From contig CBFGVN010000001.1 in NCBI GenBank assembly GCA_965651845.1, positions 7,323 to 71,322 of the forward strand: DNA of 64,000 nt. The letters are read 5' to 3'. Below, piece by piece: positions 31,598 to 40,949 of the stretch. The notes under the pieces were generated by a model. That model was given only the letters and a program-made list of their open reading frames with translations. It had not been told where the DNA came from and ran no database searches. Both the position numbers and the translations under genes were made by a program. The stretch is from an uncultured Chryseobacterium sp. (GTDB taxonomy: Bacteria > Bacteroidota > Bacteroidia > Flavobacteriales > Weeksellaceae). The stretch's first letter is position 1. Every line of letters begins with the position of its first letter.

Positions 31598-33856
31598 TTA
31601 GTCTCGGTTTTTAACTAGAATCCATCCTGAATATTTAATTGGCGTATTCTTCTTATTATTTTCATTCCATGAAACAGAATACCAATAGTTTCCTGTAGGA
31701 ACTTTTCTTCCGGCTACGGTTCCGTCCCATCTATATTTGTTGGACTTATCGGCCTGATGTATTTTTGCGCCGTATCTGTCAAATACATTAAATACAAGAT
31801 TTTGTTTCCCTGCCAATGCAGAATAATCAATCACGTCGTTAATTCCGTCTCCGTTTGGAGTAATTACATTAATTAAATTCGGAACTACAATTGTAATATC
31901 AATCGGATCACAGTCATAAGCATCTTTCACATAAATTTTAGCATCTCCCCTCGGAACATTTTTAAATTCATTAGAAACCTGCCAGTTAATACCATCCATC
32001 GAATATTGATATGGTGCCGTTCCTCCCGTTACATATACCGTAACTGTCGTATTTGAAATATCAACACTCGTTATTACAGGTTGTTCAGAAGGATAAACCT
32101 TTACCGTTTGTGTAGCGACACATTCTCCTGTTTTTAATTTTACCCAATATGTTCCAACCGTTACATTATTAATAGCCTGAGTGGTTGCTCCGGTGCTCCA
32201 TTCATAACTTGTAAATCCTGGTCCTGCATCCAGAGTTGTTTTATCTTCGATACAAATGATCTTGTCTTGTAAAACACTTGAAAATACTTGTGCAATTACA
32301 ATTAAATTAACTTTTGCGATGGCATAACAACCATTGGCATTAGTCACTTTAATATAAACGACTCCATTAGGAGAAATGTAGGCAGTAGGATTCAATATTT
32401 CATTGGTTCCGTTTGCTGCATCAGTTACCGATGGATAATATTTTTTAGTCGCAGATTGTGTAGTTACCGCTGCTAAAGTAAGGTTGAATAATGCCATTGA
32501 CGGGTTACTTTCAATAGAACATGACCTTAAAGTTGCTCCCTGTACCGTAACTTCCGGGTATAAAGCAAGGGTTACTTCAGCTACATCCACACATCCTTGC
32601 GGTGTAGTTACTTTACAATAAAGCGTTGCTGCAGGTGAAAGATATGCTGTTGGGTTTGTTATCTGGTTAATATTATTATTCAGGTCGTACATCGTATTGT
32701 AGAACTGTTTGGTAACTCCCGGAACTGTCGATACGGCAGCTGTGGTGAGATCAAATATTGCACCTCCCGCATTATTGTTGTTACATCCGGTTAGCGTTGC
32801 ATCAGAGGCTGCAAAAGGAGTTGGGTTTAATACAATTTGTCCGTCTCCATTGTCACATAACGTAGATGAAGGATCCTTTACAACTACCGTAATATTCACA
32901 GGACCAGAATATTGATAACTTGAAGGATTGGTAATAGGTGTTCCGCCGGGACCAAAATAAGTAAAGATATAATTGGCCGGATTTGTTACAAATTGATTTT
33001 GAAAAGAGGTTAAATCCACAGTGCCGTTTCCTGTTGCCGGATTTACACAGACAAAAGGTGTAACTGTATTCGTTAAAATCGGAACTTTATCAATATAAAT
33101 TTTAGCATTTTTAATAGAATGTCTTGCACTGGCTCCACCTGTTGCCGCAGAGAATCCAAAATATCCGGTCGTCATCCCGATTGCTCCGCCTGAAGGTGCA
33201 AAAGACTGATCCACGATCAGAACGCCATCAAGTCGGATTTTGATGATCCAGTTGGTCGGGTTTGTAAGATCGGTTTCTCCGTTTACTTCAACGTGCTTGT
33301 AAGTAGAACCTACAAATGGCTGCGTAGGATTCAGATCCGGTGAGTGGAATGTGCTTCCCGGTGTATTGTTATATTCAATATTATTGTTTCCGACAGGTAA
33401 ATTGTTGGTTCCGTACAAAAGGTGAATTTTACTCATTTGTCCCTCTGTGGTATTGTTGAAAATATCAAAACCAACCATCAATCCATTGGCATTTGCAGGA
33501 ATTCCTAATCCTCCTCCGGCAACAAATGCTGATGGTGGATTAGCGAGATACCAAAAGGTAAAGCCATCGCCTCTTCCATATTGTGTCGTACCGTTTCCAT
33601 CAATTCGGAAATCGAATTCCACTTTCCATTTGTCACAATATTTAAGGTTGATAGGGGTTGAAAGCTTTATAGCGCCATATTGATTTCCCATATCCTGGGT
33701 AAGCCGTATAAAATCTCCGCTTACTGCTGCGCTTGACACAAGATCCCATCCGGTTGTGTTTACCGGATTTCCTGCAAGCTGATAAGTCTGGGAGTATAAT
33801 CTTCCTGATACAGAGACGAAAATAATAAAAAGATAATAGAGTAAATTTTTTTTCAT
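31598..33856 (-). CDS. T9SS type-B CTD surface protein B with L-type lectin-like domain
   Basis: Start MKKNLLYY; GDGFTFWY, YFGFSAATGG; two stalk repeats; TPNGDGIND CTD. Confidence 0.88.
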   Translation of the reverse strand: MKKNLLYYLFIIFVSVSGRLYSQTYQLAGNPVNTTGWDLVSSAAVSGDFIRLTQDMGNQYGAIKLSTPINLKYCDKWKVEFDFRIDGNGTTQYGRGDGFTFWYLANPPSAFVAGGGLGIPANANGLMVGFDIFNNTTEGQMSKIHLLYGTNNLPVGNNNIEYNNTPGSTFHSPDLNPTQPFVGSTYKHVEVNGETDLTNPTNWIIKIRLDGVLIVDQSFAPSGGAIGMTTGYFGFSAATGGASARHSIKNAKIYIDKVPILTNTVTPFVCVNPATGNGTVDLTSFQNQFVTNPANYIFTYFGPGGTPITNPSSYQYSGPVNITVVVKDPSSTLCDNGDGQIVLNPTPFAASDATLTGCNNNNAGGAIFDLTTAAVSTVPGVTKQFYNTMYDLNNNINQITNPTAYLSPAATLYCKVTTPQGCVDVAEVTLALYPEVTVQGATLRSCSIESNPSMALFNLTLAAVTTQSATKKYYPSVTDAANGTNEILNPTAYISPNGVVYIKVTNANGCYAIAKVNLIVIAQVFSSVLQDKIICIEDKTTLDAGPGFTSYEWSTGATTQAINNVTVGTYWVKLKTGECVATQTVKVYPSEQPVITSVDISNTTVTVYVTGGTAPYQYSMDGINWQVSNEFKNVPRGDAKIYVKDAYDCDPIDITIVVPNLINVITPNGDGINDVIDYSALAGKQNLVFNVFDRYGAKIHQADKSNKYRWDGTVAGRKVPTGNYWYSVSWNENNKKNTPIKYSGWILVKNRD

Positions 33857-34030
33857 CTGAAACAAATTGGTTGATTTAGTTAGTTTGTAAAGATATTGAA
33901 TTTTGTGCGTTTTCTGATTATTATTTGTTAAATATGGCATTGATTTTATTAATTAAATAATAAAAATTAAAAAATGTAATTAAAGTAATAATTTTAATTT
34001 AAAAAATACCTATTAAAATATCAATTGAAT

Positions 34031-34073: not shown

Positions 34074-36326
34074 TTATTCCCTATTTTTTACCAATACCCA
34101 GCCGTTGTAGGTTGTTTGTGTATTGTTTTTGTTATTTTCATTCCATGTGATGGTGTACCAGTAAGTTCCGGTCACTACTTTTTTACCTCCGGCAGTTCCG
34201 TCCCATTTATAGTTTCGCAGTTTGTTTGCTTCATATAATTTGTTTCCATATCTGTCATAAATGGTGAAAACCAGATTTTTCTTGTAGGCTAAAGCTGAAT
34301 AATCAATTACGTCATTTAAATTGTCTCCGTTTGGCGTAATCGCATTGATCAGATTTGGTACAGTGATTTGTACGTGAATTGGCTCACAATTGTAAGAGTC
34401 TCTTACATATACTACCACTTCTCCTCTCTGAAGACCTGTGAATACATTAGAATCCTGCCAGTTGATACCGTCCAAAGAATATTGGTAAGGAGCTTTTCCT
34501 CCAGCTACATTTACAGTAATTGTATTATTGGTAATATCGATACTTGAAATTACCGGCTGTGGTGCAGGGTTTACCTTTACAATTTGCTTGGTCGTACATT
34601 TTCCTGTTTTCAGCAACACCCAATAAAGTCCCACAGAAACTCCCTGGATAGATTGGGTGGTATCTCCCGTACTCCACAAATAGCTGTCGAATCCTGGTCC
34701 TGCATCAAGAGTGGTTCTGGAATCTATACAAATTGTTTTATCTTTTAATATAGTAGAATAAACTGGTTCTAAAACTTTCAGATTAATTTTAGCAATCATA
34801 AAACATCCTGCAACATTTGTGATTCTTACATAAACCACCCCGGTTGTTGTAATGTAATTTGTTGGTGTTCCAATAGGGTTGGTTCCTGCCAAAGCGTCCG
34901 CTAAAGTTTTATAATATATTTTAGTAATTGATTGTGCAGATGTTACATTAGCTTGTGTTAAATCAAATGAAGCCGTATTAGGTGCACTTTCAATAAAGCA
35001 AGATTCTAAAGAAGCATCCGTTGTAGGAATTTGCGGGAAATATGCTAAAGTAATTGGTGCAGACCCCGTACATCCAAGAGGAGTTGTTACTTTTACATAC
35101 ACTGTTCCTGCAGGAGACAGATAATTCATCGGATTGGCAATTGGGTTGGTTCCCGCATTTAGATCCGCCATTGTTTTATAATATATCTTAGTCGAACCAG
35201 GCGGTTCATTTACATTGGCAAGTGTTAAATTATACGTTGCCGATCCTATATTATTGTTGTTACACGCTGTAAGAGTTGCCGGAGTTGCCGTAAATGGTGA
35301 AAGGTTTAATTGGATCTTCCCGTCCGGATTGTCACAAAGAACTCCTGAATTATCTTTAATTAATACAGAAACTGTCGTATTTGTACTGAACTGATAGTTC
35401 GCCGGATTCGTAATCGGAGTTCCGGAAACACTATAAGAAAACGTATAATTACTAGGATTCGTTACAAACTGATTCTGGTAGGAAGTTAAGTTTACTGTTC
35501 CCTGACCCGTTGCCGGATTAGGACAGAAAGTATCCGTTACAGTCGGTGTGTTGATCGCTACTTTATCTACATAAACTTTTACGTTTTTAATAGAATGTCT
35601 CGACCTGTTCCCTCCTGTAGAAGCAGAAAATCCGAAATATCCCACCGTCATTGAAGCAGCAGCTCCTGATGGTGCAAAAGATTGATTACATATTACATTG
35701 CCGTCAATCATAATTTTTATAATCCAGTTGGCCGGAGCGGCAGGATCTACCTGAGATGTTACTTCAACGTGTTTGAAGGTGGCTCCCTGAAAAGGCAGCG
35801 TTGTATTCATATCCGGAGAGTGGAAGGAGCTCCCGGCAACATTGAAAAACTCTACATTGTTATTATCCGTAGTATTTTGAATTAATCCGTAGCCAACATG
35901 TACCTTGCTCATTACAGCTGTTGTAGTATTGTTATATGTATCAAACCCTACAACTAAACCGATTGCATTTTGAGATACTCCAAGTCCGGAACCTAGTACA
36001 CTGGCTACCGGCGGATTTTGAAGATACCAGAATGCAATACCATCTCCGTTAGCGGTTTGGTTGGAATCCATTCTGAAGTCGAACTCCACTTTCCACTTAT
36101 CACAGTATTTTAAGTTGATGGGATCATTCAGTCTGATAGATCCCGATTGATTATTGGTATCAGGAGTAAGCTGTATAAAATCGGTATTAACTACCGTGGG
36201 AGAAACCATTGTCCATCCAGTTGTATTTACCGGATTTCCAGAGAGTTGATATGTTTGAGAGCTGAAATGCTGTGGAAGGCACAACAATAGGATTAATAAA
36301 AAAAGGAAGTAGTTGTTTCTATTCAT
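34074..36326 (-). CDS. T9SS type-B CTD surface protein C with L-type lectin-like domain
   Basis: Lectin head close to that of gene A; CTD TPNGDNLND...YDRYGN...WDG...YWY. Confidence 0.88.
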   Translation of the reverse strand: MNRNNYFLFLLILLLCLPQHFSSQTYQLSGNPVNTTGWTMVSPTVVNTDFIQLTPDTNNQSGSIRLNDPINLKYCDKWKVEFDFRMDSNQTANGDGIAFWYLQNPPVASVLGSGLGVSQNAIGLVVGFDTYNNTTTAVMSKVHVGYGLIQNTTDNNNVEFFNVAGSSFHSPDMNTTLPFQGATFKHVEVTSQVDPAAPANWIIKIMIDGNVICNQSFAPSGAAASMTVGYFGFSASTGGNRSRHSIKNVKVYVDKVAINTPTVTDTFCPNPATGQGTVNLTSYQNQFVTNPSNYTFSYSVSGTPITNPANYQFSTNTTVSVLIKDNSGVLCDNPDGKIQLNLSPFTATPATLTACNNNNIGSATYNLTLANVNEPPGSTKIYYKTMADLNAGTNPIANPMNYLSPAGTVYVKVTTPLGCTGSAPITLAYFPQIPTTDASLESCFIESAPNTASFDLTQANVTSAQSITKIYYKTLADALAGTNPIGTPTNYITTTGVVYVRITNVAGCFMIAKINLKVLEPVYSTILKDKTICIDSRTTLDAGPGFDSYLWSTGDTTQSIQGVSVGLYWVLLKTGKCTTKQIVKVNPAPQPVISSIDITNNTITVNVAGGKAPYQYSLDGINWQDSNVFTGLQRGEVVVYVRDSYNCEPIHVQITVPNLINAITPNGDNLNDVIDYSALAYKKNLVFTIYDRYGNKLYEANKLRNYKWDGTAGGKKVVTGTYWYTITWNENNKNNTQTTYNGWVLVKNRE

Positions 36327-36489: not shown

Positions 36490-36966
36490 TTAAAATAACG
36501 AATTATTTTCAAGATTTTCAAAATACGTGTCGATTTCAAGATTGGGAGAGCTGGCAGCGGCAACAGCAAGTTTATCACACAATTCGTTTTCAAAATGTCC
36601 CGCATGTCCCTTTACCCAGTGCATTTTAGGTTTGTGAATATTATATAAAGCTGCAAATCTCTGCCACAGATCGGGATTTTTTACATTTTTCCAGCCTCTT
36701 TTGATCCACCCCGAAAGCCAATCCTGGTTGATGGCATCTGCAACATATTTGCTGTCCGTATAAATATGAATGTCGTTATCAGGAGATTTCAGTTTTTCCA
36801 AAGCCGTAATTACCGCCAGAAGTTCCATTCGGTTATTGGTGGTTTTTCGGAAGCCTTTGGAAAATGTTTTCTGGTATTTTTTTTCAGGAACACGCATGAG
36901 AATTCCATATCCGCCTTTTCCGGGATTTCCACTGCAAGCTCCGTCGGTGTATATTTCTATTCTCAA
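36490..36966 (-). CDS. rnhA: Ribonuclease HI
   Basis: YTDGACSGNPG, TTNNRMEL, TDSKY, WVKGHAGH, NELCDKLA; TTG start. Confidence 0.96.
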   Translation of the reverse strand: MRIEIYTDGACSGNPGKGGYGILMRVPEKKYQKTFSKGFRKTTNNRMELLAVITALEKLKSPDNDIHIYTDSKYVADAINQDWLSGWIKRGWKNVKNPDLWQRFAALYNIHKPKMHWVKGHAGHFENELCDKLAVAAASSPNLEIDTYFENLENNSLF

Positions 36967-37029
36967 ATTTTATTTAATTGAAATTGCTTAAACTTAAAGT
37001 TATAAAGATTTATTGATTTTAATATTAGA

Positions 37030-37095
37030 GATGTCATCCTGAACTTGTCGAAGGCTCTTATATAATCAAGGCTCCGAGAGCCTCAGCCTGACACC
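37030..37095. repeat. Palindromic repeat of the TGTCATCCTGA family between dnaB and rnhA
   Basis: gatgtcatcctgaacttgtcgaagg...ggctccgagagcctcagcctgacacc shares arms with the 97-bp element. Confidence 0.7.
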
Positions 37096-37121
37096 GTGGG
37101 AATATTTTTTAAAATTAATAA

Positions 37122-38714
37122 TTAAAAAGGAAAATCATCGTCATCATCAAAATCATTCATTGAAGATCCTGAAAGCTGTGAGCTGTCCGGAAGATCAAAT
37201 GCTGCCCCTGGCTGAATGGTCGTTTTAATTTTATCAAAACCACTTTGTTCTTTAGATCCGAAGTTCGAAGGATATCCTCCGGCACTTCCGCCATCAAAAG
37301 CTGCTTCAATATCTCCAAATTTAGCAAAATGCTTTAAGAATGATAAACGAACATCGGCAGTAGCACCGTTCCTATGCTTTGCAATGATTAACTCGGCCTG
37401 GTTTTCCGTTGAAGTTTCCTGACCTTCTTCATCATTATCCCAAACAGTGATTTTATAATATTCCGGTCTGAAGATGAAAGATACAATATCCGCATCCTGC
37501 TCAATCGCTCCAGATTCCCTCAAATCGGAAAGCTGAGGTCTTTTTCCCGGACGGGTTTCCACACTACGCGAAAGCTGGGAAAGTGCAATTACCGGAACGT
37601 TCAATTCTTTTGCGATTGCCTTTAAGGAACGGGAAATCATGGAAATTTCCTGTTCACGGTTTCCAACACCTTTTCCACCGCTTCCTGCAGTCATTAGCTG
37701 AAGGTAGTCGACCATGATGAGTCGTACACCATGCTGCATTACCAGTCTTCGGCATTTTGCACGGAAGTCGAATATGGAAAGGGAAGGTGTTTCGTCGATA
37801 TATAGAGGAGCATTTTCCAGTTCGGATACATTCGAGAATAGTCTTTGCCATTCGTCGTCGTCCAAAGTTCCTTTTCTTAATTTTTCGGATGAGATTCTTG
37901 TTTCGGAAGCAATCATTCTGGTGATGAGCTGTACTGAAGCCATCTCGAGGGAGAACAGAGCCATCGGAATTTTGTGGCCTACTGCAATATTTCTCGCCAT
38001 GGAAAGCAGAAATGCCGTTTTCCCCATCGCCGGACGTGCCGCGATGATGATAAGGTCGGAGTTTTGCCAGCCTCCGGTTTCTTTATCCACATCCCTGAAA
38101 CCTGAAGGTACTCCGGAAAGTCCCTGCTTGTCTTTCAGAGATTTGATGGTGTCGATTGCTTGTTTTACCAATGAGTTGGCCGTGTCAAAACCTTTTTTAA
38201 TGGTTCCGTTGGTGATTTCAAAAAATGACTGTTCTGCTTTGTCTAAAAGTTCAAAAACGTCTGTTGATTCTTTATAGGCTGCGTCAATTACATTTGCGGA
38301 AACATTAATTAAGCTTCTTAAAATATATTTTTCCAGAATGACACGAACGTGATATTCGATGTGGGCAGAAGAGCTTACCCCCAACGTAAGATCAATGATA
38401 TAGCTGTCACCTCCTGCAAGACTTAATTTTCCTTCTTTCTTCAGATCCTGAATGATGGTCATTAAATCCACAGGCTGGTTGCCTTCGTACAATTTTAAAA
38501 TGGTAGAAAAAATTACAGAATGTCTCGGGTCATAGAAAACCTCCGGTGTAAGCAAATCAATAGAATGGTCGAGCCCTTTTTTATCAATCAAAAAAGTACC
38601 GATTACCAGTCTCTCGAAATCCACTGCATTTGGAGGCATTTTTCCATCAGCAATTGACAGCTCTTTCGCGAAGTTCCCGTTCGTCAAAGAAGATAATGTT
38701 TCTTTCTGCGCCAT
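37122..38714 (-). CDS. dnaB: Replicative DNA helicase with acidic C-terminal extension
   Basis: AARPAMGKT, FSLEM, VDYLQLM, LSQLSR, SDLRESGAIEQDAD, IAKHRNG; no intein. Confidence 0.97.
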   Translation of the reverse strand: MAQKETLSSLTNGNFAKELSIADGKMPPNAVDFERLVIGTFLIDKKGLDHSIDLLTPEVFYDPRHSVIFSTILKLYEGNQPVDLMTIIQDLKKEGKLSLAGGDSYIIDLTLGVSSSAHIEYHVRVILEKYILRSLINVSANVIDAAYKESTDVFELLDKAEQSFFEITNGTIKKGFDTANSLVKQAIDTIKSLKDKQGLSGVPSGFRDVDKETGGWQNSDLIIIAARPAMGKTAFLLSMARNIAVGHKIPMALFSLEMASVQLITRMIASETRISSEKLRKGTLDDDEWQRLFSNVSELENAPLYIDETPSLSIFDFRAKCRRLVMQHGVRLIMVDYLQLMTAGSGGKGVGNREQEISMISRSLKAIAKELNVPVIALSQLSRSVETRPGKRPQLSDLRESGAIEQDADIVSFIFRPEYYKITVWDNDEEGQETSTENQAELIIAKHRNGATADVRLSFLKHFAKFGDIEAAFDGGSAGGYPSNFGSKEQSGFDKIKTTIQPGAAFDLPDSSQLSGSSMNDFDDDDDFPF

Positions 38715-38821: not shown

Positions 38822-38852
38822 AAAAAAATCACCCCAAAAGTGAGGTGATTTT
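38822..38852 (-). terminator. Terminator of T9SS cargo gene D
   Basis: aaaatcacc...ggtgatttt with an A tract. Confidence 0.65.
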
Positions 38853-38879: not shown

Positions 38880-40949
38880 TTATTCGATATTTTTTACCAA
38901 TACCCATCCGCTGTATTTCGTTTCGGTATTGTTTTTATCGTTCTCGTTCCATGAGATCGTGTACCAATACGTTCCTGTGATGATTTTCTTACCGCCGGAA
39001 GTACCGTCCCAGGTATAGTTTCTGATTTTATCTGCCTGATACAGCATGTTTCCATATCTGTCATACACGGTGAAAACCAGATTTTTCTTATACGCTAAAG
39101 CTGAATAATCGATAAAATCGTTTTTGTTGTCTCCATTTGGTGTGATAGCATTAAGAAGATTCGGAACCGTTACCTGAACTTCGATCGGAGTACAGTCGAA
39201 AGCGTCTTTTACATATACCTTGTTTTCACCTCTCGGAAGATTGGTGAATACATTTGAATCCTGCCAATTAATACCATCAATAGAATATTTGTAAGGCGCT
39301 TTTCCGCCGGCAACATTTACTGTGAATGAATTGTTTGTGATATCAATACTTGTAATTACAGGCTGTTGGGAAGATAGAACTTTTACAGGCTGTAAAGTCC
39401 AACATTCTCCTGTTTTCAATTTTACCCAATAAGAACCAACGCCTACATTCGTAATTGATTGTGTTGTTGCTCCTGTGCTCCATTCGTATCCGTCGAATCC
39501 AGGACCTGCATCAAGAGTTGTCATGTCTTCCATACAGATTGTTTGGTCTTTCAAAACATTAGAATGTACTGGAGGCAGAACTTTTAAAGTAATTTTTGAA
39601 ATTGCATAACAGTTGTTTTCACTGACTACTTTTACATAAACTACTCCGTTTGCAGAAATGTAAGCATTAGGATTTAGTATTTCATTGGTTCCGGCAATTG
39701 CATCTGCCTGAGTTTTATAGAACTTTTTAGTCATTCCGGTTTGGGAAGTCACATTTGCTAATGTTAAATCAAATGAAGCTGTTGTGATATTCGAATCGAT
39801 GAAACAAGATTCTATGGTTGCATCGTAAGCCACGACTAAAGGATAGAATTGCAATGTAATTGTTGAATGCCCTACACATTGCCCGGCGGTAGTCACTTTT
39901 ACATATACTGTTTTTTCACCTGAAACATAATTTGCCGGATTCTGAATTTCATTTGTTCCTGCGTTCAGATCATTAAGTGTAAGATAAAATTTCTTAATGG
40001 CAGTATTATCAAAATAAACATTTGCCGCCAACAGATTAAATGTTCCTGTTCCCGCTCCATTGTTGTTACAAGCTTTTATTGTCACATCCTGAGGGGTGAT
40101 TGTCCCAAGTTTGAATTTAAATGAACCGGTTTGTCTACAGTCATTTAACGGGTTATTCGGATCTGCCGGATCCTGATAATGCATACTGTAATAATAGGTA
40201 TCTGCTGCATTTACCATGATTGGAGTTGTAATAGGGTTGGTTCCGAATAATGCATCATTAGCAGTTGTATGATAAGTAATGATAAAATTTGGGTTACCAT
40301 TCAAGATTCCTGCAGATAATGTACTAAAATCAAACTGGCCCGGTAAAGGACATGTTGAAACCAGGTTTGGACCTCCCGCCGGATTGGGATCTCCCGGAGC
40401 TACAAACGGATTCGGAGCCAAGCTTGGATCTGTAAACGCTGATGAAAGAGCTGCAGTTCCACCCCAAGTTAAAGAGAAGCCATAAGGGTTACTTGGGATG
40501 TAGTTGTCTATTAAAAGATAGTAAGTTTCTCCTGCATTCACCGTTAAAGGTGGGTTCCATTGATCTCCAGTTTCTGTAGAGCTTAATCCTGTCGGGCCGG
40601 TTAACCCGGAAAAGTTACAGCTTGCAGCATTACCGAAATCCCATGTAGCACAATCAATATTCGGTCCGTAAACAGCGAAGTCATAATCATAATGAGTGAC
40701 ATTAGGAACCGTATTAGGATTTATTGTAAACTCGATTGTTCCAGAGGTAGCTGCTGTGAATGTGTACCAAACGGAATAATGTTCCACATCCAGACAGCTG
40801 GGCGAGGTATTCTCCTGTACGGTACCTGAGCTGTTGGGATTATAGGAAATGTCAGAATTACCACAAACCGGGATTGCTGAAACACAGTCTGATTGTGAGA
40901 AAGCCATTTGTGATAAAAACACTATGACGAGTAGTAATAGTTTCTTCAT
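38880..40949 (-). CDS. T9SS type-B CTD surface protein D with a Cys-containing N-terminal beta-sandwich head
   Basis: QSDCVSAIPVCGN head, SVWYTF, DYDFAVYGPN, GETYYLLIDNY; stalk repeats; TPNGDNKND CTD. Confidence 0.86.
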   Translation of the reverse strand: MKKLLLLVIVFLSQMAFSQSDCVSAIPVCGNSDISYNPNSSGTVQENTSPSCLDVEHYSVWYTFTAATSGTIEFTINPNTVPNVTHYDYDFAVYGPNIDCATWDFGNAASCNFSGLTGPTGLSSTETGDQWNPPLTVNAGETYYLLIDNYIPSNPYGFSLTWGGTAALSSAFTDPSLAPNPFVAPGDPNPAGGPNLVSTCPLPGQFDFSTLSAGILNGNPNFIITYHTTANDALFGTNPITTPIMVNAADTYYYSMHYQDPADPNNPLNDCRQTGSFKFKLGTITPQDVTIKACNNNGAGTGTFNLLAANVYFDNTAIKKFYLTLNDLNAGTNEIQNPANYVSGEKTVYVKVTTAGQCVGHSTITLQFYPLVVAYDATIESCFIDSNITTASFDLTLANVTSQTGMTKKFYKTQADAIAGTNEILNPNAYISANGVVYVKVVSENNCYAISKITLKVLPPVHSNVLKDQTICMEDMTTLDAGPGFDGYEWSTGATTQSITNVGVGSYWVKLKTGECWTLQPVKVLSSQQPVITSIDITNNSFTVNVAGGKAPYKYSIDGINWQDSNVFTNLPRGENKVYVKDAFDCTPIEVQVTVPNLLNAITPNGDNKNDFIDYSALAYKKNLVFTVYDRYGNMLYQADKIRNYTWDGTSGGKKIITGTYWYTISWNENDKNNTETKYSGWVLVKNIE

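What the first reader, a model, noticed from the sequence alone, without database searches (positions are those of the whole stretch)
36490..37320. DnaB helicase carries an SSB-like C-terminal acidic tip and lies directly upstream of RNase HI
Seen: after the last helicase motif (IAKHRNG...HFAKF), DnaB continues through a roughly 55-aa Gly/Ser/Pro-rich linker and ends MNDFDDDDDFPF. rnhA follows on the same strand. Established: the E. coli SSB tip is MDFDDDIPF, it docks SSB-interacting proteins, and E. coli RNase HI is one of them. T7 gp4 helicase also uses an acidic, Phe-terminated tail to hold the polymerase. Inference: the helicase hexamer displays six SSB-Ct mimics that recruit RNase HI, primase or repair factors to the fork, giving a helicase-tethered R-loop removal module.
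Basis: partly seen in the sequence, partly recalled or inferred. Interest (0 to 1): 0.8.

Follow-up and report, generated by a model that had tools for sequence, protein, structure and literature searches.

The report
DnaB helicase with SSB-like tail
The replicative helicase of this Chryseobacterium, like that of almost every Bacteroidota genome sampled, ends in a floppy acidic tail tipped with Pro-Phe, resembling the docking peptide of the DNA-coating protein SSB. This probably tethers an unidentified fork partner, and the link to the neighbouring RNase HI gene holds in only one sub-family.

Summary
dnaB (window 37122-38714, minus strand, 530 aa) has a 63-residue extension beyond the DnaB_C domain that ends MNDFDDDDDFPF. 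rnhA (36490-36966) follows on the same strand after 155 nt.

The tail is not a local oddity. Of 149 sampled Bacteroidota DnaBs, 126 end in x-Pro-Phe and 145 end in an aromatic residue, after an acidic run. Ten further genomes from families the first sample missed gave 8 PF ends.

The tip differs from the SSB tip of the same genomes. SSBs and DUF3127 proteins almost always end LPF, whereas DnaB almost never has Leu at -3. Genomes with aberrant DnaB tips keep ...DDLPF on SSB.

The dnaB-rnhA pairing is narrow. It holds in 80/80 Chryseobacterium loci and 39/41 genomes of the Chryseobacterium-like clade of the family. It was found in 0/9 other genera of the family and 0/110 elsewhere.

That clade also has a tail-less canonical SSB and an RnhA with its own conserved ...[S/G/T]LF end.

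No partner was identified. The one complex prediction, RnhA with the tail, gave no answer.

The reading is therefore a conserved docking tail of SSB-Ct / T7 gp4 type. RNase HI is a clade-specific candidate client at most. This scan found the same DnaB tail before on other DNA (e1-2349123, e1-2277042). I found no paper describing it.

The parts
37122..38714 (-). dnaB, replicative DNA helicase, 530 aa including its stop codon
   Evidence: ORF. Pfam DnaB N 27-128 and DnaB_C 201-467. An ortholog was found in 399/401 genomes of the phylum.
37314..38114 (-). DnaB_C (RecA-like motor) domain, residues 201-467
   Evidence: PF03796, E 4.3e-107. Solved DnaB chains align only up to query residues 468-475 and end there.
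37125..37313 (-). C-terminal tail, residues 468-530, which no solved DnaB has
   Evidence: It is conserved in 80/80 Chryseobacterium loci and in family relatives.
37188..37244 (-). Conserved tail block 1, SGFDKIKTTIQPGAAFDLP (residues 491-509), specific to the Chryseobacterium-like clade
   Evidence: A505 and F506 are invariant; G492, F493, T499, P502 and P509 are at least 90% conserved. It is absent in this form from divergent genera of the family.
37125..37172 (-). Conserved block 2 plus tip: SGSSMND, a run of five Asp, then F-P-F at the C-terminus (residues 515-530)
   Evidence: G516, S517, N520 and D521 are invariant. The pre-tip motif S-x-[MLIAF]-[NDG] is found in 106/120 class-level relatives, and PF ends in 126/149.
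36967..37121 (-). dnaB-rnhA spacer of 155 nt, carrying two short dispersed-repeat modules (about 37022-37054 and 37068-37093)
   Evidence: No terminator-like site lies in it. The modules recur at 5-7 other places in the assembly. The spacer is 9-20 nt in most other genera of the clade.
36490..36966 (-). rnhA, RNase HI, 158 aa, TTG start
   Evidence: PF00075, E 1.5e-41. It is 1e-47 to E. coli RNase HI chains. D8, E48, D71 and D131 are invariant in 54 relatives.
36493..36525 (-). RnhA C-terminal extension (residues 148-158) ending ...NSLF
   Evidence: It lies beyond the alignment to E. coli RNase HI. L157 and F158 are at least 90% conserved. [S/G/T]LF ends are seen in 104 of 116 distinct dnaB-linked RnhAs, but not in 4 unlinked relatives.
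38825..38852 (-). Terminator-like hairpin upstream of dnaB, which would isolate dnaB-rnhA from the gene before it
   Evidence: 12-bp stem followed by a T run. This is a consensus match only.

Best explanation
The housekeeping DnaB of Bacteroidota carries a flexible C-terminal extension. It ends in an acidic run followed by x-Pro-Phe (or at least an aromatic residue) at the free carboxyl end. This is the same design as the SSB C-terminal tip and the T7 gp4 helicase tail.

The most likely mechanism is a docking peptide. Six tails per hexamer project from the RecA-like C-terminal face, which leads at the fork. Each can insert its terminal Phe and carboxylate into a basic/hydrophobic pocket of a replisome or fork-processing protein. 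This keeps that protein concentrated at the helicase.

Shown here: the sequence, its position, phylum-wide conservation, and its difference from the native SSB tip. Inferred: that it binds a partner, and which partner. The near-absence of Leu at -3 and the lack of co-variation with SSB suggest one or a few dedicated partners rather than the whole SSB interactome.

In the Chryseobacterium-like clade the tail gained an extra conserved block and rnhA was placed directly behind dnaB. RNase HI is therefore a candidate client there, but not the general one.
For: Phylum-wide conservation of the tip:
- PF ends by kinship level: 29/29 same order, 43/51 same class, 18/20 other classes, 36/49 same family. 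Overall 126/149 end in PF and 145/149 in an aromatic residue.
- 8 of 10 further genomes, from families the first sample missed, end in PF.
- The genome background for PF ends is 0.3%.
- On average 4.2 of the nine residues before the tip are acidic and 0.2 are basic.

Other evidence:
- The linker varies in length and sequence while the tip and the pre-tip motif S-[KR]-M-N-[DE] persist. This is the signature of a short linear motif on a tether.
- No solved DnaB has this extension; chains are 434-474 aa and align only up to query residue 475.
- Precedent: the acidic C-terminal tails of T7 gp4 bind basic patches of the polymerase, and deleting them cuts processivity (PMC12593628). The SSB-Ct DDDIPF is a docking hexapeptide (PMC5872125, abstract).
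- Second, mobile-element-like DnaB paralogs of 441-452 aa in some of the same genomes are too short to carry the tail.
Against: - No binding partner is shown.
- Leu at -3, near-invariant in SSB and DUF3127 tips of the same genomes, is seen in only 3 of 126 DnaB tips. The tip may therefore not fit the classical SSB-Ct pockets.
- A few lineages have lost the Pro-Phe (ends ...EDFDD...VDEQD...DDIFH) and still keep the pre-tip motif. The tip is therefore not indispensable everywhere.
- Disorder of the tail is inferred from composition and indels only. The full-length model was too poor to use.
Confidence: 0.7

Rival explanations
1. One reading: the tail's job is to recruit RNase HI to the helicase, which gives a helicase-tethered R-loop removal module.
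For: - rnhA lies directly behind dnaB on the same strand in 80/80 Chryseobacterium loci and 39/41 genomes of the Chryseobacterium-like clade, mostly 9-20 nt apart.
- There is no terminator-like site between the genes here.
- E. coli RNase HI is an SSB-Ct client that is localised to forks through SSB (titles of Petzold 2015 and Wolak 2020 in the reference list of PMC10164576; entry 4z0u is among the E. coli RNase HI chains).
- The Lys that I recall as critical in E. coli (K60, from memory) aligns with K60 here.
- The canonical SSB of this clade has no tail.
- The linked RnhAs have a clade-specific conserved C-terminal end.
Against: - The tail is phylum-wide, but rnhA was downstream of dnaB in 0/9 other genera of the family and 0/110 genomes elsewhere. 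RNase HI cannot explain the tail in general.
- All the clade-specific features may stem from one ancestral event, and kin are not independent.
- A DUF3127 SSB-like protein in the same genome carries a canonical ...DDDDDLPF tip. An ordinary SSB-type tip is therefore still available to RNase HI.
- K60 is not among the positions that are at least 90% conserved in the clade.
Confidence: 0.2
2. A loading or self-regulation role. The acidic tail acts on DnaB itself or on its loader. It could be a DNA mimic that occupies the ssDNA-binding surface of the bare-domain DciA or of DnaB until loading. In effect it would replace the disordered extension that DciA has in other phyla.
For: - The own DciA is a 97-aa bare domain.
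- Blaine et al. report that Bacteroidetes, Rhodothermaeota and Chlorobi DciA are mostly 'Group 4', lacking the extensions that are essential in V. cholerae and M. tuberculosis (bioRxiv 10.1101/2022.01.24.477630). These are the lineages in which DnaB has the tail.
- SSB's own tip binds its own OB fold (PMC3936761, abstract).
Against: - This is a phyletic coincidence only, with no test of contact.
- The same paper puts Thermotogae and Chloroflexi largely in Group 4, and I could not check their DnaB.
- DciA is present in the two genomes whose DnaB lost the PF end, so there is no co-loss.
Confidence: 0.15
3. T7-like coupling: the tail holds the replicase (Pol III alpha or tau) or the primase on the helicase, as the gp4 tail holds gp5.
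For: - The same architecture sits on a helicase of the same superfamily, with the tail on the face where the polymerase sits in T7 (PMC12593628).
- E. coli DnaG binds the SSB-Ct (PMC5872125).
- Universality across the phylum fits a core replisome partner.
Against: - No data here bear on Pol III, tau or DnaG of this organism.
- In E. coli the tau-DnaB and DnaG-DnaB contacts need no such tail.
Confidence: 0.15
4. A neutral low-complexity extension without function.
For: Part of the tail (467-490) is variable, G/S/N-rich and full of indels.
Against: - The terminal motif is kept across several classes of the phylum.
- Invariant positions lie inside the tail: A505, F506, G516, S517, N520 and D521.
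- 145/149 relatives end in an aromatic residue, against a 0.3% background for PF ends.
Confidence: 0.03

Closest known systems
Bacterial SSB C-terminal tip (SSB-Ct; E. coli MDFDDDIPF, Bacteroidota ...DDLPF) on a disordered linker
   Same: Both have a flexible linker, an acidic run and Pro-Phe at the free C-terminus. The window's M-N-D-F-D5-F-P-F parallels M-D-F-D3-I-P-F, including the upstream Met and Phe.
   Different: The tip sits on a hexameric helicase, not on an OB-fold tetramer. Position -3 is F here and V/M/A/P/T in relatives, with Leu in only 3 of 126. SSBs and DUF3127 proteins of the same genomes have Leu. The DnaB tip does not co-vary with the SSB tip. Its clients are unknown.
Bacteriophage T7 gp4 helicase-primase acidic C-terminal tail (and gp2.5 tail)
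   Same: Both are DnaB-superfamily hexamers with an acidic tail on the C-terminal face. In T7 the helicase and the SSB share the same kind of tail, which is what is seen here for DnaB, SSB and DUF3127. The T7 tail tethers the polymerase (PMC12593628).
   Different: This is a cellular chromosomal helicase. The tail is much longer (63 aa against 17) and has extra conserved internal motifs. It ends Pro-Phe. The partner is not known to be the polymerase.
Canonical DnaB (E. coli, G. stearothermophilus, V. cholerae, Aquifex, T. aquaticus structures)
   Same: The N-terminal collar and RecA-like C-terminal domain match at E 1e-78 to 3e-115.
   Different: The solved chains end within a few residues of query position 468-475. 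None has the 55-63 residue extension.

Membership tests
DnaB replicative helicase (PF00772 + PF03796) | N-terminal DnaB domain plus C-terminal RecA-like DnaB_C domain | tested here: met
   PF00772 at 27-128 (E 1.8e-25) and PF03796 at 201-467 (E 4.3e-107). The PDB DnaBs match at up to 3e-115.
DnaB replicative helicase (PF00772 + PF03796) | Housekeeping chromosomal copy rather than a mobile-element paralog | tested here: met
   The best match in 399/401 genomes of the phylum falls in identity with taxonomic distance: 97% in the genus, about 60% in the order, about 50% in the class. The separate paralogs of 441-452 aa are only 41-45% identical.
SSB-Ct-type docking tip | Motif at the extreme C-terminus ending Pro-Phe with a free carboxylate | tested here: met
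   The protein ends ...FPF followed by a stop. PF ends in 126/149 relatives.
SSB-Ct-type docking tip | Run of acidic residues immediately before the tip | tested here: met
   Five Asp here. On average 4.2 of the nine preceding residues are acidic in relatives.
SSB-Ct-type docking tip | Ile or Leu at position -3 (D-D-D-[IL]-P-F) | tested here: not met
   Phe here. Among 126 PF-ending relatives the counts are V 35, M 37, A 19, P 10, T 7, I 4 and L 3. SSB and DUF3127 tips in the same genomes are nearly always LPF.
SSB-Ct-type docking tip | Carried on an intrinsically disordered linker | tested here: inconclusive
   G/S/N/P-rich composition and frequent indels among relatives point to disorder. 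The AlphaFold2 model of the whole protein was poor throughout (mean pLDDT 47), so its low confidence in the tail proves nothing.
SSB-Ct-type docking tip | Binds pockets of SSB-interacting proteins | not testable with these tools
   This needs peptide binding assays.
T7 gp4-type helicase tail | Acidic, aromatic-terminated tail on the C-terminal face of a DnaB-superfamily hexamer | tested here: met
   (145/149 relatives end in an aromatic residue). The T7 description is in PMC12593628.
T7 gp4-type helicase tail | Tail binds basic patches of the replicative polymerase | not tested
   No polymerase of this organism was examined.
RNase HI (PF00075), for the downstream gene | RNase H fold with the carboxylate catalytic residues | tested here: met
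   PF00075 E 1.5e-41. The match to E. coli RNase HI is 1e-47. D8, E48, D71 and D131 are invariant in 54 relatives.
dnaB-rnhA operon as a conserved unit | Adjacency conserved wherever the tail occurs | tested here: not met
   80/80 Chryseobacterium loci and 39/41 genomes of the Chryseobacterium-like clade have it. It was found in 0/9 other genera of the family and 0/110 genomes elsewhere in the phylum.

The most novel reading that the evidence does not exclude
In Bacteroidota the replicative helicase is itself an interaction hub. Its six acidic, Phe-tipped tails recruit a dedicated partner that other bacteria reach through SSB or through the loader's own tail. Candidates are the bare-domain DciA loader, PriA, or the replicase.

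In the Chryseobacterium-like clade this hub was rebuilt together with four other changes: loss of the tail from canonical SSB, transfer of the SSB-type tip to a DUF3127 OB-fold protein, fusion of rnhA into the dnaB operon, and a new conserved C-terminal end on RNase HI. The result would be a helicase-tethered RNase HI acting at the front face of the fork.
Probability: 0.15. Interest if true: 0.8.

Novelty: new variant of a known kind. Interest (0 to 1): 0.6.

Why it matters
Replisome organisation is known almost only from E. coli, B. subtilis and phages. In those systems SSB's tip is the hub, and DnaB contacts its partners through folded surfaces.

A conserved docking tail on DnaB across a whole major phylum points to a different wiring of helicase, loader, polymerase or repair factors. 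That phylum includes gut Bacteroidales, Flavobacteriia and Chlorobia-type lineages. The tail gives a simple handle to find the partner: a 10-16 residue peptide. It could also be a phylum-selective target.

For RNase HI, the clade-specific operon offers a natural test of whether R-loop removal can be tied to the helicase rather than to SSB.

Tried and rejected
1. Complex prediction of RnhA (alignment A2) with the last 70 residues of DnaB (alignment A1). The score was 0.02 against a mark of 0.32, which the tool reports as no answer. This is neither for nor against binding.

2. AlphaFold2 model of full-length DnaB from a 40-row, low-diversity alignment. Mean pLDDT was 47 and even the core was poor. 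It is unusable for judging disorder or fold-back of the tail.

3. Co-loss test. The two genomes whose DnaB lacks the aromatic end (G255, G375) still have DciA and RNase HI. This is uninformative.

4. Co-variation of the DnaB tip with the SSB tip. None was found; SSB stays ...DDLPF whatever the DnaB end. This argues against a strict shared-pocket model.

5. Search for another conserved neighbour of dnaB as a partner clue, using 97 downstream ORFs scanned against Pfam. No replication protein appeared. The one recurrent neighbour in Flavobacteriaceae is a roughly 420-aa protein with an N-terminal signal-like segment and no family, so it is not a cytoplasmic partner.

6. The idea that the DnaB tail replaces a lost SSB hub in Chryseobacterium. 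This is weakened because a DUF3127 SSB-fold protein in the same genome carries a canonical tip.

7. Transcript evidence. Only assembled contigs were available. In one RNA library of a plant metagenome, two overlapping contigs of a 90-95% relative run from inside dnaB through the spacer into rnhA. Contigs cannot show a single transcript, and DNA may be present in the library.

8. Literature. Five full-text searches found no description of a DnaB C-terminal SSB-like tail. The Petzold 2015 and Wolak 2020 papers on RNase HI and SSB are not held.
Full report
**What is there**

The window comes from a Chryseobacterium genome; the 80 best related loci are all Chryseobacterium at 93-97% identity. On the minus strand, dnaB occupies 37122-38714 and encodes 530 aa. 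Pfam finds the N-terminal DnaB domain at 27-128 and DnaB_C at 201-467.

Residues 468-530 lie beyond any family model. They also lie beyond the end of every solved DnaB. Those chains are 434-474 aa and align only up to query residues 468-475. The protein ends MNDFDDDDDFPF.

rnhA (36490-36966, 158 aa, TTG start, PF00075) follows on the same strand after 155 nt.

**Is the tail conserved?**

I located DnaB in 399 of 401 genomes sampled across the phylum. I then read the 3' end of the gene and about 1.8 kb downstream in 100 of them. I added 49 genomes of the same family and ten from families the first list had missed.

| Kinship to the window | DnaBs ending in Pro-Phe |
|---|---|
| Same order | 29/29 |
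| Same class | 43/51 |
| Other classes of the phylum | 18/20 |
| Same family | 36/49 |
| All | 126/149 |

- 145 of the 149 end in an aromatic residue.
- Eight of the ten extra genomes end ...D-A-P-F or similar.
- The nine residues before the tip hold on average 4.2 acidic and 0.2 basic residues.
- Only 0.3% of long frames in this genome end in PF.

The stretch between the helicase core and the tip varies in length and sequence. From the [HQ]RNG motif to the end there are 23 to 105 residues.

Within the class a second element persists 10-20 residues before the end. It is S-[KR]-M-N-[DE], here SSMND, and it is found in 106/120 class-level relatives and 0/20 in other classes. Together with the acidic run and the PF end it reproduces the pattern of the E. 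coli SSB nonapeptide M-D-F-D-D-D-I-P-F.

A variable tether with a fixed terminal motif is the signature of a docking peptide.

**How does it compare with the native SSB tip?**

In 40 genomes spread over the phylum the tailed SSBs end almost invariably in ...D-x-L-P-F. DnaB has Leu at -3 in only 3 of 126 PF-ending cases. The other residues there are V 35, M 37, A 19, P 10, T 7, I 4 and F 4.

Genomes whose DnaB end is aberrant still have ...DDLPF on SSB. The aberrant ends are ...FDIF...DDLF...PAVF...EDFDD...VDEQD...DIPW and ...DFPI. The two tips therefore evolve independently.

The helicase tip is more likely tuned to one or a few partners than to the whole SSB interactome.

**The rnhA link**

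rnhA lies directly downstream of dnaB, on the same strand, in these samples:
- 80/80 Chryseobacterium loci.
- 39/41 genomes, representing about 40 genera, of a Chryseobacterium-like clade of the family. The gap is typically 9-20 nt.

It was not found downstream of dnaB in these samples:
- 9 more divergent genera of the same family.
- 110 genomes elsewhere in the phylum.

In the window no terminator-like site separates the genes, and one lies upstream of dnaB. The unusually long spacer is explained by two short dispersed-repeat modules.

The operon is therefore real but young. It cannot be the reason for a tail that predates it by the depth of the phylum.

**Other features of the same clade**

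1. Its DnaB tail has an extra, strongly conserved block, GF[DE]KIKTTI[DQ]PGAAFD[LM]P.
2. Its RnhA has a roughly 10-residue C-terminal extension ending [S/G/T]LF. This is seen in 104 of 116 distinct sequences. Four unlinked RnhAs of relatives end differently.
3. Its canonical SSB is a short, tail-less protein ending ...EILLLGGK.
   - In a 100%-complete Chryseobacterium genome it is the only strong PF00436 hit.
   - Flavobacteriaceae and the divergent genera of the family keep a second, tailed SSB.
   - The additional tailed SSBs in the clade are of the type found here next to a DUF932-like ORF, probably on an integrative element.

All these features may go back to one ancestor, so their co-occurrence is a lead and not a statistic.

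**Does the tail replace a lost SSB hub?**

Probably not. A scan of all 14,785 closed frames of at least 60 aa in the assembly found, besides DnaB and the element-borne SSB, one further convincing acidic-x-PF protein.

It is a 125-aa DUF3127 protein ending GDDDDDLPF. Its model is confident over residues 1-90 (pLDDT above 90). Its best structural matches are bacterial SSB OB folds, with Foldseek E about 1e-6, TM up to 0.76 and rmsd 2.2-2.9 A.

All 24 DUF3127 proteins read in other genomes also end acidic-x-PF, 19 of them in DLPF. An SSB-type tip is therefore still on offer in this cell.

**Partner**

It is not counted either way.

Candidates from established knowledge:
- The classical SSB-Ct clients: RNase HI, DnaG, PriA and RecQ.
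- The replicase, by analogy with T7 (PMC12593628).
- The loader. The own DciA is a bare 97-aa domain. Blaine et al. report that Bacteroidetes, Rhodothermaeota and Chlorobi DciAs mostly lack the extensions that are essential elsewhere. A tail on the helicase could make up for that.

None of these could be tested here. Presence or absence of DciA and RNase HI in the two tip-less genomes was uninformative. No other replication gene is a conserved neighbour of dnaB.

**Comparison with what is known, and novelty**

The closest known things are the SSB-Ct and the T7 gp4 tail. The window's tail meets the positional, acidic and Pro-Phe criteria of an SSB-Ct. It fails the [IL] at -3 criterion. It works like, but is not a copy of, the SSB tip.

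Five full-text searches found no description of such a tail on a cellular DnaB.

The scan itself has met it before. One follow-up on another Bacteroidota genome reached the same phylum-wide conclusion (e1-2349123), and another found the like in Clostridia (e1-2277042). Several first readers had noted DUF3127 proteins with DLPF tips. These are not independent evidence. I re-derived the conservation and the DUF3127 fold here.

- The tip's systematic difference from SSB and the lack of co-variation.
- The pre-tip motif.
- The narrow range of the rnhA operon.
- The clade-specific remodelling of SSB, RnhA and the tail.

**Verdict**

This is a real, conserved and undescribed variant of a known kind of docking tail. 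The partner is unknown. The RNase HI module is a plausible local elaboration (about 0.2) but is not the general explanation.

Noticed in passing
L214, L215, L284-L288 (Chryseobacterium-like genomes); not found in the 84%-complete own assembly: The canonical SSB (PF00436) of the Chryseobacterium-like clade is a short protein without any C-terminal linker or tip (it ends ...EILLLGGK or ...EELLLLGTK). In a 100%-complete Chryseobacterium genome it is the only strong SSB hit. Flavobacteriaceae have this short SSB plus a tailed one ending ...DLPF.
   Followed up: partly
G000 contig C8, L304:1442-1819 (minus strand): A 125-aa DUF3127 protein: residues 2-88 match PF11325, followed by a low-confidence linker and GDDDDDLPF. 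Its model matches bacterial SSB OB folds best (Foldseek E about 1e-6). All 24 DUF3127 proteins read in other Bacteroidota end acidic-x-PF, 19 of them in DLPF. It looks like an uncharacterised SSB-type protein that carries the SSB tip.
   Followed up: yes
L001:1249-1896 (own genome, contig C13): A second SSB ending ...VTDDLPF lies next to a DUF932-like ORF. The same type (...FHTSQIKLHGG...DDLPF) recurs as an extra SSB in several genomes of the clade. It is probably carried by an integrative conjugative element.
   Followed up: partly
window 36493-36525 (minus strand): RnhA has a roughly 10-residue C-terminal extension ending ...NSLF. [S/G/T]LF ends are seen in 104 of 116 distinct dnaB-linked RnhAs but not in four unlinked relatives. 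It could be a clamp-binding-like or other docking end; this was not tested.
   Followed up: partly
window 37022-37054 and 37068-37093: Two short modules in the dnaB-rnhA spacer recur at 5-7 other places in the assembly. Foreign contigs also pile up on them in public runs. This is a small dispersed repeat that lengthens the spacer from the usual 9-90 nt to 155 nt.
   Followed up: partly
window 31598-33940, 34074-36326, 38880-40949 (all minus strand): Three large paralogous ORFs (780, 750 and 689 aa) flank the dnaB-rnhA pair. They share repeated middle modules and a nearly identical C-terminal roughly 90 residues (...ITPNGD..ND.IDYSAL...W.LVKN). From memory this resembles the gliding-motility-associated / type IX secretion C-terminal sorting domain.
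   Followed up: no
L086:489-1748 and about 25 other loci (Flavobacteriaceae and some other families of the class): A highly conserved protein of about 420 aa (57-85% identity) with a signal-like N-terminus and no Pfam or NCBIfam family lies directly downstream of dnaB on the same strand. It was not found in the own assembly.
   Followed up: partly
L183:1366-1659 (own genome, contig C580): DciA is a bare 97-aa domain without N- or C-terminal extension ('Group 4' of Blaine et al.). It scores only just above the Pfam cut-off (24.2 bits).
   Followed up: partly
G448:C32, G438:C8, G403:C53, G424:C22, G421:C1, G436:C179: Some genomes of the family have a second DnaB-like gene, 41-45% identical, in frames of 441-452 aa that are too short to hold the tail. 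These are probably mobile-element helicases.
   Followed up: no
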